This document shows positions 29,201 to 32,200 of a stretch of DNA of 64,000 nt, piece by piece. Source of the stretch: Escherichia coli (lineage in GTDB: Bacteria; Pseudomonadota; Gammaproteobacteria; Enterobacterales; Enterobacteriaceae); NCBI RefSeq assembly GCF_050320075.1, contig NZ_CP190018.1; one strand, 5' to 3'. Made by a program: the position numbers. Position 1 is the first letter of the stretch. Each line of letters begins with the position of its first letter.

Positions 29201-32200
29201 TTGCCTTGATGGTCAATTTTATGGCACGATAAGTGTAACAAACCTGTAAATATTCCCTATAAAAAGACTGTCAGTTGAGGACATTATGAAAAAACTGGTG
29301 CTATCGCTCTCTCTGGTTCTGGCCTTCTCCAGCGCAACTGTGGCGTTTGCTGCGATTCCGCAAAACATCCGCATCGGTACCGACCCGACCTATGCGCCAT
29401 TTGAATCAAAAAATTCACAAGGCGAACTGGTTGGCTTCGATATCGATCTGGCGAAGGAGTTGTGCAAACGCATCAATACGCAATGTACGTTTGTCGAAAA
29501 CCCACTGGATGCGTTAATCCCGTCCTTAAAAGCGAAGAAGATTGACGCCATCATGTCATCGCTTTCCATTACGGAAAAACGTCAGCAAGAAATAGCCTTC
29601 ACCGACAAACTGTACGCTGCCGATTCTCGTCTGGTGGTGGCGAAAAATTCCGACATTCAGCCGACAGTCGAGTCGCTGAAAGGCAAACGGGTAGGCGTAT
29701 TGCAGGGCACCACCCAGGAGACGTTCGGTAACGAACACTGGGCACCAAAAGGCATTGAAATCGTTTCTTATCAAGGGCAGGACAATATTTATTCTGACCT
29801 GACTGCCGGACGTATTGATGCCGCGTTCCAGGATGAGGTCGCTGCCAGCGAAGGTTTCCTCAAACAACCCGTCGGTAAAGATTACAAATTCGGTGGCCCG
29901 TCTGTTAAAGATGAAAAACTGTTTGGCGTAGGGACCGGCATGGGCCTGCGTAAAGAAGATAACGAACTGCGCGAGGCACTGAACAAAGCCTTTGCCGAAA
30001 TGCGCGCTGACGGTACTTACGAGAAATTAGCGAAAAAGTACTTCGATTTTGATGTTTATGGTGGTTAATCGCCATCGGTGAAAGAAAGTCCGCTCCCTTC
30101 GGGTAACCGGAGGGAGACAAGAGGCGGTAATTCACCACACACGACAGGACAGGCAGCATGTTGTATGGGTTTTCAGGTGTTATTTTACAGGGTGCGCTCG
30201 TCACGCTGGAGCTGGCTATCAGCTCTGTAGTGCTCGCTGTAATCATCGGTTTAATTGGCGCTGGCGGTAAGCTCTCGCAAAATCGGCTTTCGGGGCTGAT
30301 TTTCGAAGGGTACACCACGCTGATTCGAGGCGTGCCGGACTTGGTGTTGATGCTGCTAATTTTCTACGGTTTGCAGATTGCACTAAACACGGTGACGGAG
30401 GCGATGGGCGTCGGGCAGATTGATATCGATCCGATGGTCGCTGGTATTATTACTCTCGGTTTTATCTACGGTGCTTATTTTACCGAAACGTTCCGTGGCG
30501 CTTTTATGGCAGTGCCGAAAGGACATATAGAGGCGGCGACGGCGTTCGGTTTCACTCGTGGGCAAGTGTTTCGGCGGATCATGTTTCCGGCGATGATGCG
30601 TTACGCCCTGCCAGGCATTGGCAACAACTGGCAGGTGATCCTCAAATCTACCGCACTCGTTTCGTTACTCGGCCTGGAAGATGTGGTCAAAGCCACGCAG
30701 CTGGCAGGCAAAAGTACCTGGGAACCGTTCTATTTCGCCATCGTCTGTGGCGTGATTTACCTGGTTTTCACCACTGTTTCCAATGGTGTGCTGCTGTTCC
30801 TTGAGCGCCGCTACTCCGTGGGTGTGAAGAGGGCTGACCTGTGATCGAAATCTTACATGAATACTGGAAACCGCTGCTGTGGACTGACGGTTATCGCTTT
30901 ACTGGCGTGGCGATCACCCTGTGGCTGCTGATTTTGTCGGTAGTGATAGGCGGAGTCATGGCGCTGTTTCTGGCGATTGGTCGCGTCTCAAGTAATAAAT
31001 ACATCCAGTTTCCAATCTGGTTATTTACGTATATTTTTCGCGGTACGCCGCTGTATGTTCAGTTGCTGGTGTTCTATTCCGGCATGTACACGCTGGAAAT
31101 TGTTAAGGGAACCGAGTTCCTTAACGCCTTTTTTCGCAGTGGCCTGAACTGTACCGTGCTGGCGCTGACGCTCAACACCTGCGCTTACACTACCGAGATT
31201 TTTGCCGGAGCGATCCGTTCAGTGCCGCATGGGGAAATCGAAGCCGCCAGAGCCTATGGCTTCTCGACCTTTAAAATGTATCGCTGCATTATTTTGCCAT
31301 CGGCGCTGCGTATTGCGTTACCGGCCTACAGCAACGAAGTGATCCTGATGCTGCACTCTACTGCGCTGGCTTTCACCGCTACTGTGCCGGATCTGCTGAA
31401 AATAGCCCGCGATATTAACGCCGCCACGTATCAACCTTTTACCGCCTTCGGCATTGCCGCGGTGCTCTATTTAATCATCTCTTATGTCCTGATCAGCCTC
31501 TTTCGCAGAGCGGAAAAACGCTGGTTGCAGCATGTGAAACCTTCTTCAACGCACTGAGAATACGATGTCCGAGAATAAATTAAACGTTATCGATTTGCAC
31601 AAACGCTACGGCGAACACGAAGTGCTGAAAGGGGTCTCACTGCAAGCGAATGCCGGAGATGTCATAAGCATCATCGGATCGTCGGGATCGGGGAAAAGTA
31701 CCTTTCTGCGCTGCATTAACTTCCTCGAAAAACCGAGTGAAGGATCGATCGTGGTCAATGGCCAGACGATCAATCTGGTGCGCGACAAAGACGGTCAACT
31801 CAAAGTCGCCGATAAAAATCAGCTGCGCTTACTGCGCACACGCCTGACGATGGTATTCCAGCACTTCAATCTCTGGAGCCATATGACGGTGCTGGAAAAC
31901 GTCATGGAAGCGCCGATTCAGGTGTTGGGCCTGAGCAAGCAGGAAGCGCGCGAGCGGGCGGTGAAGTATCTGGCAAAAGTTGGGATAGACGAACGTGCGC
32001 AGGGGAAATACCCGGTGCATCTGTCCGGTGGTCAGCAACAGCGTGTTTCCATCGCAAGGGCGCTGGCAATGGAACCGGAAGTTTTACTGTTTGATGAACC
32101 TACCTCGGCGCTCGATCCTGAACTGGTAGGCGAGGTGTTACGTATTATGCAGCAACTGGCAGAAGAGGGGAAAACCATGGTGGTAGTGACTCACGAAATG

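What the first reader, a model, noticed from the sequence alone, without database searches (positions are those of the whole stretch)
30069..30157. Stem-loop in the hisJ-hisQ intercistronic gap
The 89-nt gap between the binding-protein gene and the first permease gene contains an imperfect palindrome (gctcccttcgggtaaccggagggag). Such a structure could act as a partial terminator or RNase barrier, giving higher expression of the periplasmic binding protein than of the membrane components.
Basis: inference. Interest (0 to 1): 0.2.

Follow-up and report, generated by a model that had tools for sequence, protein, structure and literature searches.

The report
Known hisJ mRNA-protecting intercistronic hairpin
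The stem-loop between E. coli hisJ and hisQ is real and is already published as an RNA hairpin that blocks 3'-to-5' exonucleases, so that the binding-protein message outlives the permease message; it is correct but ordinary.

Summary
The window is E. coli argT-hisJQMP. The 89-nt hisJ-hisQ gap (30069-30157) holds a 10-bp hairpin, CUCCCUUCGG-GUAA-CCGGAGGGAG (30093-30116). It is perfect as RNA (one U.G pair), -19.9 kcal/mol, in the top 0.2% of 40-nt windows, single-copy per genome, with no U tract and no Rfam match.

It is already known. Dar & Sorek 2018 (PLoS Genet, S3/S6 Tables) list exactly this hairpin as a "3' protective structure". A Term-seq 3' end lies 6 nt after the stem (window 30122). 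The hisJ:hisQ half-life ratio is 3.7 and the steady-state mRNA ratio 5.8. As a set, the 26 such sites showed no significant Rho-dependent termination.

My comparison of 80 Enterobacteriaceae genomes agrees. Every gap has a strong hairpin and none has a U tail. Stem sequences turn over with compensatory changes. Salmonella and most Citrobacter loci carry REP elements at the same spot, nested in the same covarying outer helix.

The 3' third of the gap is a separate, published element, the GcvB (R1) target site and ribosome-binding site of hisQ. Novelty: already known. Interest: low.

The parts
29286..30068 (+). hisJ, histidine-binding periplasmic protein; the stabilised upstream cistron
   Evidence: ORF; RefSeq annotation of identical and near-identical E. 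coli loci
30069..30157 (+). hisJ-hisQ intercistronic gap, 89 nt
   Evidence: present in 5424 of 5426 complete E. coli genomes
30088..30091 (+). 5' strand of the outer 4-bp helix (GUCC; GCCC in K-12)
   Evidence: RNAalifold consensus on A1. On A4 it is 99.3% paired, and 2 of 4 pairs show compensatory changes (UA->CG, GC->CG)
30093..30116 (+). Inner protective hairpin: 10-bp stem (30093-30102 with 30107-30116, one U.G pair) and GUAA loop (30103-30106)
   Evidence: Identical hairpin and the same -19.9 kcal/mol in Dar & Sorek S6 Table. Covariation
30117..30122 (+). A-rich tail ACAAGA. The published steady-state RNA 3' end maps to its last base (window 30122; BW25113-type coordinate 2419431)
   Evidence: S6 Table sequence ends ...CCGGAGGGAGACAAGA, mapped onto the window sequence. 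The tract is A-rich in all Enterobacter-type relatives
30121..30125 (+). 3' strand of the outer helix (G-a-GGC, A30122 bulged). It is cut by the mapped 3' end, so the outer helix exists only in the precursor
30133..30157 (+). C/A-rich hisQ leader (CACCACACACGACAGGACAGGCAGC): hisQ Shine-Dalgarno region and GcvB target site. This is a separate element from the hairpin
   Evidence: Conserved block. GcvB R1 duplex predicted at 30136-30158, -22.8 kcal/mol. hisQ was verified as a GcvB R1 target with a hisJ-hisQ intraoperonic fusion (PMC9299463)
30158..30844 (+). hisQ, first permease gene; the unstable downstream segment

Best explanation
The hairpin is a 3' protective structure, that is, an exonuclease barrier that drives differential decay within the (argT-)hisJQMP transcript. 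The operon is transcribed through the gap. The poorly protected hisQMP part is cut or otherwise loses its 3' end. 3'-to-5' exonucleases (PNPase, RNase II) then degrade back until they stall a few nucleotides 3' of the G+C-rich 10-bp stem. This leaves a translatable hisJ mRNA ending at about 30122 that outlives hisQMP, so the binding protein is made in excess over the membrane complex. Shown: the hairpin, the 3' end just after it, the longer hisJ half-life and higher level, the absence of a U tract, and evolutionary selection for the stem. Inferred: which nucleases act, where the initiating cut falls, and that the hairpin itself causes the stabilisation in E. coli.
For: (1) Structure: 10 bp, -19.9 kcal/mol, z = -3.98; top 0.2% of windows. 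(2) Published experiment on this exact sequence (PMC5927463): the S6 Table gives a Term-seq 3' end immediately after ...GGAGGGAGACAAGA with this fold. The S3 Table gives a hisJ/hisQ half-life ratio of 3.72 and a steady-state ratio of 5.83 +/- 2.81. The main text names the histidine system among ABC transporters whose binding-protein gene is stabilised. It also says these structures lack U tracts and show no significant Rho-dependent termination in bicyclomycin data. (3) Salmonella shows the same behaviour: a ratio of 4.77 and a 3' end just after the second REP in the gap. (4) Comparative: 81 of 81 hisJ-hisQ gaps contain a strong hairpin (-13 to -58 kcal/mol) and none has a U tail. Covariation is clear. 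A2 has 93.9% of cells paired against 30-60% when slid, and 34 double-change cells against 0/500 shuffles. A4 has 93.7% against 41-61%, and 28 double-change cells against 0/500 shuffles. Loop sequences are free to vary (GUAA, GCUA, AAGAGC within Escherichia). (5) REP elements occupy the same slot, inside the same outer helix, in Salmonella and most Citrobacter loci. (6) Type I ABC systems need a 10- to 200-fold excess of binding protein over transporter (PMC12094219).
Against: No mutational test of the E. coli hairpin was found. The half-life ratio from an independent dataset (Moffitt 2016, quoted in S3) is only 1.39. The S3 half-life ratio has no standard deviation and the steady-state ratio has a large one (2.8). 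The Rho test in the paper is stated for the set of 26 sites, not for hisJ individually. hisJ is not listed in the E. aerogenes comparison table. The strand-specificity test (G.U 31 vs A.C 17 cells, p = 0.06) is only suggestive. A4 was aligned to the model structure, which favours pairing. Part of the hisJ excess may come from translation efficiency and from GcvB repression of hisQ rather than from mRNA decay.
Confidence: 0.85

Rival explanations
1. Partial intrinsic (Rho-independent) terminator: some RNA polymerases stop at the hairpin, so fewer transcripts reach hisQMP.
For: A G+C-rich stem-loop lies between a high-expression and a low-expression cistron, and an RNA 3' end lies 6 nt after the stem.
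Against: The tail ACAAGAGGCGG contains no U. The site is not called on the + strand by the terminator scan. None of the 81 orthologous hairpins is followed by a U tract. Dar & Sorek state that these structures lack the U tract, and they attribute the hisJ excess to a half-life difference.
Confidence: 0.04
2. Rho-dependent termination, possibly enhanced when GcvB blocks hisQ translation, creates the precursor 3' ends in the C/A-rich hisQ leader or early hisQ. Exonucleases then trim back to the hairpin. The hairpin is still the barrier, but polarity rather than endonucleolytic decay sets the ratio.
For: [quoted passage not shown] The leader after the hairpin is C/A-rich and is a verified GcvB target.
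Against: Dar & Sorek detected no significant Rho-dependent termination at their 26 protective-structure sites using bicyclomycin RNA-seq. The measured half-life difference is not expected from termination alone. The C-rich stretch is only about 25 nt long.
Confidence: 0.12
3. The structure mainly controls hisQ translation, by occluding its ribosome-binding site or through long-range pairing, rather than hisJ stability.
For: The gap can form longer-range helices around the hairpin: GGUGAA 30077-30082 with UUCACC 30131-30136, and UCGCC with GGCGG. From memory, the Salmonella literature (Stern et al. 1988) attributes much of the low hisQ expression to translation.
Against: In the MFE and centroid folds the SD region ACAGGACAGG is not paired with the hairpin arms. 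The long-range helices are not conserved across genera. The hairpin is 41 nt upstream of the AUG.
Confidence: 0.05
4. A neutral relic or DNA-level element, such as a degenerate REP/MITE or a protein or gyrase site, with no RNA function.
For: REP elements occupy this position in related genera. An IS element has targeted the loop in one strain.
Against: It is single-copy in every E. coli genome and does not match the REP motif that recurs in the window. Compensatory changes preserve pairing across genera. An RNA 3' end maps to it.
Confidence: 0.03

Closest known systems
E. coli hisJ-hisQ '3' protective structure' of Dar & Sorek 2018 (PLoS Genet 14:e1007354, S6 Table)
   Same: It is the same object. 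The hairpin is identical and the computed energy is the same (-19.9 kcal/mol). The K-12 allele differs from the window in the quoted 60 nt only at 30066 (a synonymous hisJ third-codon position) and 30089.
   Different: Nothing substantive. This analysis adds the outer helix, the cross-genus covariation, and the REP substitution seen across 80 genomes.
REP elements in the Salmonella typhimurium hisJ-hisQ gap (Higgins et al. 1982; Stern, Prossnitz & Ames 1988, Mol Microbiol 2:141)
   Same: Same operon and same position, inside the same conserved flanks AAAGCCC...AAAAGAGGC. The same outcome is seen: an RNA 3' end just after the structure and a hisJ:hisQ ratio of 4.8.
   Different: The E. coli hairpin is a unique 24-nt sequence, not a member of the dispersed REP family. 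The Salmonella gap is about 181 nt with an inverted REP pair. The content of the 1988 paper is cited from its title and from my memory, because the paper is not held.
malE-malF intercistronic REP stabiliser (Newbury et al. 1987; summarised in PMC5927463)
   Same: The operon logic (binding protein first, then permeases) and the mechanistic model are the same: an endonucleolytic cut followed by a 3' exonuclease stall at a stem-loop.
   Different: The malE-malF element is made of REP sequences and its role was tested by deletion. The hisJ hairpin is non-REP and, as far as I found, untested by mutation in E. coli.
Intrinsic (Rho-independent) terminator
   Same: A G+C-rich stem-loop with a tetraloop, and an RNA 3' end a few nt downstream.
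   Different: There is no U tract, here or in any orthologue, and transcription continues into hisQMP.
[quoted passage not shown]
   Same: A stable stem-loop without a U tract, a precise steady-state 3' end just downstream, and protection from PNPase/RNase II.
   Different: Those lie at operon ends after Rho termination. This one is internal to an operon, and its set showed no significant Rho signal.

Membership tests
3' protective stem-loop of differential operon decay (malE-malF type) | Energetically stable stem-loop at the boundary between a stable upstream and an unstable downstream operon segment | tested here: met
   -19.9 kcal/mol, z = -3.98; top 0.2% of windows; located between hisJ and hisQ
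3' protective stem-loop of differential operon decay (malE-malF type) | Steady-state RNA 3' end immediately downstream of the stem-loop | tested here: met
   Not measurable with these tools, but found in published data: a Term-seq 3' end 6 nt after the stem (PMC5927463 S6 Table)
3' protective stem-loop of differential operon decay (malE-malF type) | Upstream cistron has a longer mRNA half-life and a higher steady-state level than the downstream cistron | tested here: met
   Published values: half-life ratio 3.72 and level ratio 5.83 +/- 2.81. An independent dataset gives only 1.39
3' protective stem-loop of differential operon decay (malE-malF type) | Removing or weakening the stem destabilises the upstream cistron (causality) | not testable with these tools
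   No E. coli mutant data found. Strain TUM14697 carries a natural IS disruption that could be used
3' protective stem-loop of differential operon decay (malE-malF type) | Pairing rather than sequence is under selection | tested here: met
   Covariation in two alignments. Hairpins are present in 81 of 81 gaps with unrelated sequences. A4 was fitted to the model
Intrinsic terminator | G+C-rich hairpin | tested here: met
   8 G-C pairs out of 10
Intrinsic terminator | U-rich tract directly 3' of the stem | tested here: not met
   The tail ACAAGAGGCGG has no U. The site is not called on the + strand by the scan. No orthologue has a U tract
REP / BIME | Dispersed multi-copy family | tested here: not met
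   One place per genome in 5021 genomes and one copy in the window
REP / BIME | Match to the REP consensus (GCCGGATAAGGC-type arms) | tested here: not met
   The REP motif hits 5 other window sites but not this one. The sequences are visibly unrelated
REP / BIME | Extragenic palindrome within a transcription unit | tested here: met
Any Rfam family | Covariance-model match | tested here: not met
   No hit in 27900-32600 apart from one chance-level match elsewhere (E = 8.2)
GNRA-tetraloop motif | Conserved GNRA loop | tested here: not met
   GUAA fits GNRA in this window, but the loop is GCUA in another E. coli and AAGAGC in E. albertii, and is unrelated elsewhere

The most novel reading that the evidence does not exclude
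The gap may be a composite intercistronic module. A conserved 'platform' (the covarying outer helix plus an A-rich tail) carries an interchangeable exonuclease-blocking insert: a unique hairpin in Escherichia and Enterobacter, other hairpins in Klebsiella and Kluyvera, and recruited REP elements in Salmonella and Citrobacter. Its job would be to insulate hisJ mRNA from the GcvB/Hfq-triggered silencing and decay of hisQMP that starts about 20 nt downstream. GcvB might use its R3 seed on the hisQ Shine-Dalgarno sequence in addition to the published R1 site. REP elements here would be exapted replacements of an older dedicated hairpin.
Probability: 0.3. Interest if true: 0.3.

Novelty: already known. 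Interest (0 to 1): 0.12.

Why it matters
The hairpin explains how one promoter gives a large excess of periplasmic binding protein over the membrane transporter, which type I ABC importers need. It is a clean non-REP example of the malE-malF principle, and the principle is established and this instance is already catalogued. The comparative picture may be a useful illustration: the same slot is filled by unrelated hairpins or by REP elements across Enterobacteriaceae. That suggests REPs can substitute for dedicated mRNA stabilisers, but it does not open a new question.

Tried and rejected
- **Rfam scan**: nothing relevant.
- **Terminator scan**: the + strand hairpin is not called. A weak minus-strand call at 30138-30124 is a different, 6-bp stem.
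- **Full-length GcvB-target RNAduplex**: uninformative, with the observed energy no better than shuffles or genomic windows. I replaced it with contiguous-complementarity and seed-restricted tests.
- **MAFFT alignment A1**: it put the Escherichia inner arm one column out of register with the Enterobacter type. I realigned with a covariance model.
- **A3**: it included REP-type loci that match only through the conserved 3' leader, so I discarded it in favour of A4.
- **Strand-asymmetry test**, G.U vs A.C: p = 0.06, inconclusive.
- **Literature dead ends:**
  - Stern et al. 1988 is not held.
  - The search 'hisJ hisQ intercistronic' found nothing.
  - Three papers have no supplement text held: the NAR 2018 Rho paper, the 3'-UTR valve paper and the decay-fragment paper.
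  - The held supplements of Adams et al. 2021 do not mention hisJ.
- **RNase III substrate:** rejected, because a 10-bp stem is too short.
- **RBS occlusion by the hairpin:** rejected on the folds.

Full report
**What is there**

The window is Escherichia coli. ORFs and RefSeq annotation of identical or near-identical loci give purF-ubiX-argT-hisJ-hisQ-hisM-hisP-rpnB.

The palindrome is at 30093-30116. As + strand RNA it is a perfect 10-bp stem, CUCCCUUCGG/CCGGAGGGAG, with one U.G pair and a GUAA loop. Its MFE is -19.9 kcal/mol, z = -3.98. The whole gap folds better than shuffles on the + strand (z = -2.75) and less so on the minus strand (z = -1.59). Only 0.2% of 40-nt windows in the 64 kb are as stable. 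That is 19 sites, and several of them look like REPs or U-tailed terminators.

The sequence is unique in the window. It occurs exactly once per genome in 5021 E. coli genomes that megablast could seed. The surrounding 501 nt are present in 5424 of 5426 genomes. There is no Rfam match.

The stem is followed by ACAAGAGGCGG, which has no U, and the terminator scan does not call it on the + strand.

**It is already described**

Dar & Sorek 2018 (PLoS Genet 14:e1007354, PMC5927463) measured genome-wide mRNA half-lives and Term-seq 3' ends in E. coli.

- Their S6 Table, 'E. coli 3' protective structures', has a hisJ/hisQ row. The sequence upstream of the 3' end is GGCTAATCGCCATCGGTGAAAGAAAGCCCGCTCCCTTCGGGTAACCGGAGGGAGACAAGA. 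The fold is the same 10-bp hairpin and the energy is -19.9 kcal/mol. The 3' end is therefore 6 nt after the stem, equivalent to window 30122.
- Their S3 Table gives hisJ as the stabilised gene, with a half-life ratio of 3.72 and a steady-state mRNA ratio of 5.83 +/- 2.81. The ratio computed from Moffitt et al. 2016 is lower, 1.39.
- The text names the histidine system among ABC transporters whose substrate-binding gene is stabilised.
- It states that these hairpins lack the U tract, and that no significant Rho-dependent termination was seen at these sites in bicyclomycin data. That statement is for the set of 26 sites.
- Their S5 Table shows the same behaviour in Salmonella: a ratio of 4.77 +/- 0.47, with the 3' end just after the second REP of the gap.

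The REPs of the Salmonella hisJ-hisQ gap are the classic case of Stern, Prossnitz & Ames 1988. The citation was confirmed, but the paper itself is not held.

**Comparative evidence obtained here**

A scan of one genome per species returned 80 Enterobacteriaceae hisQ loci, and I extracted every hisJ-hisQ gap. All 81 gaps, including K-12, contain a strong hairpin of -13 to -58 kcal/mol, and none is followed by a U tract. The stems fall into unrelated sequence classes:

| Group | Stem |
|---|---|
| Escherichia | CUCCCUUCGG |
| A Citrobacter subgroup | CUCCCUCC |
| Enterobacter, Lelliottia, Kosakonia, Leclercia | CCCCUCCC/GGGAGGGG |
| Klebsiella, Raoultella | CCAUCGCGCGC |
| Kluyvera | CCCAUCG... 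|
| Pluralibacter, Pseudocitrobacter, Atlantibacter, Superficieibacter | others |

Within the classes that can be aligned, pairing is maintained by compensatory changes.

- In A2 (18 sequences), 93.9% of cells pair, against 30-60% when the partner is slid. There are 34 double-change cells, a count reached by 0 of 500 shuffles.
- In A4 (38 sequences, the class containing E. coli, realigned with a covariance model), 93.7% pair against 41-61% when slid. There are 28 double-change cells, reached by 0 of 500 shuffles. This alignment is fitted to the structure, which favours pairing.

Loop sequences are not conserved even within Escherichia (GUAA, GCUA, AAGAGC), so the GNRA-like loop is incidental.

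A second, outer 4-bp helix also covaries between Escherichia/Citrobacter (GYCC...GaGGC) and the Enterobacter type (GUGC...GaCAC). Its pairs are G30088-C30125, U30089.G30124, C30090-G30123 and C30091-G30121. The published 3' end falls inside its 3' strand, so this helix can exist only in the precursor.

In Salmonella and most Citrobacter loci the gap is 138-190 nt and carries one REP or an inverted pair. The same flanks (AAAGCCC ... AAAAGAGGC) are present, and the MFE folds keep the outer helix around the REP arm. The REP motif recurs 5 times in this window against 0.3 expected, whereas the E. coli hairpin is single-copy. So the same slot is filled by a dedicated hairpin in some genera and by REPs in others.

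The strand test (G.U 31 cells against A.C 17) leans towards + strand RNA but is not significant (p = 0.06).

**Mechanism**

The best-supported reading is an exonuclease barrier. After the hisQMP portion is cut or loses its 3' end, PNPase or RNase II degrade back and stall just 3' of the stem. This leaves a stable hisJ message.

- Shown: the structure, the 3' end, the half-life and level differences, the lack of a terminator tail, and selection on pairing.
- Inferred: the nucleases involved, the initiating cleavage, and causality in E. coli.

A Rho-dependent origin of the precursor ends, followed by trimming, remains a minor alternative. Such transcripts have exactly this kind of 3' structure, but the set-level bicyclomycin result argues against it. 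Partial intrinsic termination, RBS occlusion and a neutral DNA relic are poorly supported.

The biological rationale is the 10- to 200-fold excess of binding protein over transporter in type I ABC importers.

**A second element in the gap**

The 3' third of the gap, CACCACACACGACAGGACAGGCAGC (30133-30157), is the most conserved part across genera. It is the hisQ translation-initiation region.

hisQ is a verified GcvB target through the R1 seed, tested with a hisJ-hisQ intraoperonic fusion (Miyakoshi et al. 2021, PMC9299463). It was also detected as a physical GcvB partner in vivo. I predict the R1 duplex at 30136-30158 (-22.8 kcal/mol, p about 0.02).

In addition, GcvB nt 150-164, the R3 seed, is complementary to the Shine-Dalgarno region at 30146-30156. 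This is -18.9 kcal/mol and in the top 0.4% of windows. The complementarity reaches 11-13 perfect pairs in Klebsiella, Raoultella, Pluralibacter and an unnamed Enterobacteriaceae species (using the E. coli GcvB sequence for all). The paper lists only R1 for hisQ.

The hairpin sits between hisJ and this sRNA site, so it may insulate hisJ from GcvB-triggered decay of hisQMP. That is an inference.

**Verdict**

The feature is already known and catalogued, so interest is low.

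Noticed in passing
window 30146-30156 (and 30136-30158): The hisQ Shine-Dalgarno region GGACAGGCAG is complementary to the GcvB R3 seed (nt 154-163, 10 bp with one G.U; -18.9 kcal/mol; top 0.4% of 59-nt windows). 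The match is 11-13 perfect bp in Klebsiella, Raoultella, Pluralibacter and Enterobacteriaceae sp. 89. The published work assigns hisQ to the R1 seed only.
   Followed up: partly
L083 2411-4060 (E. coli TUM14697, NZ_CP128888.1), equivalent to window ~30099-30108: An ISEc13 (IS4 family, IS50-like ends) is inserted in the loop of the hairpin with TCGGGTAACC duplicated. This separates the two arms and places about 1.55 kb between hisJ and hisQ. It is a natural knock-out of the element, seen in 1 of 5426 genomes.
   Followed up: partly
window 30088-30091 with 30121-30125: An outer 4-bp helix around the hairpin covaries across genera (UA->CG, GC->CG). It also encloses the REP-containing arm in Salmonella and Citrobacter. 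The mapped 3' end (30122) lies inside it, so it exists only in the unprocessed transcript; its role is unexplained.
   Followed up: partly
window 30117-30122 and orthologues: The tract just 3' of the stem is A-rich in the E. coli and Enterobacter-type gaps (ACAAGA, AAAAGA, AUAAGA). It could be an Hfq ARN-type site or the single-stranded landing or cleavage site. Untested.
   Followed up: no
window 30069-30081 and 30077-30082 / 30131-30136: A small hairpin, UCGCC-AUC-GGUGA, lies directly after the hisJ stop codon. The G->A variant in other E. coli keeps the pairing, and similar 4-bp hairpins occur in Salmonella and Citrobacter. GGUGAA can alternatively pair with UUCACC across the main hairpin. 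Neither is conserved in the Enterobacter-type gaps.
   Followed up: partly
window ~6972-7039, 12339-12378, 15787-15830, 46561-46600, 62906-62946: REP-like palindromes (GCCGGATAAGGC-type arms) are scattered through the window, giving 5 motif hits against 0.3 expected. They are among the few sites as stable as the hisJ hairpin.
   Followed up: no
L056 2212-2500 (labelled Citrobacter freundii M-21) and L079 (Enterobacter mori): L056 has a 289-nt gap whose ends match the Atlantibacter-type gap, with an extra insertion of about 190 nt. The L079 hairpin region has runs of C that look like sequence errors (weakest hairpin, -13.2 kcal/mol).
   Followed up: no
window 32535-33425: rpnB (recombination-promoting nuclease) follows hisP in this window and in K-12. 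It is absent between hisP and yfcH in strain TUM14697, so this is a presence/absence polymorphism.
   Followed up: no
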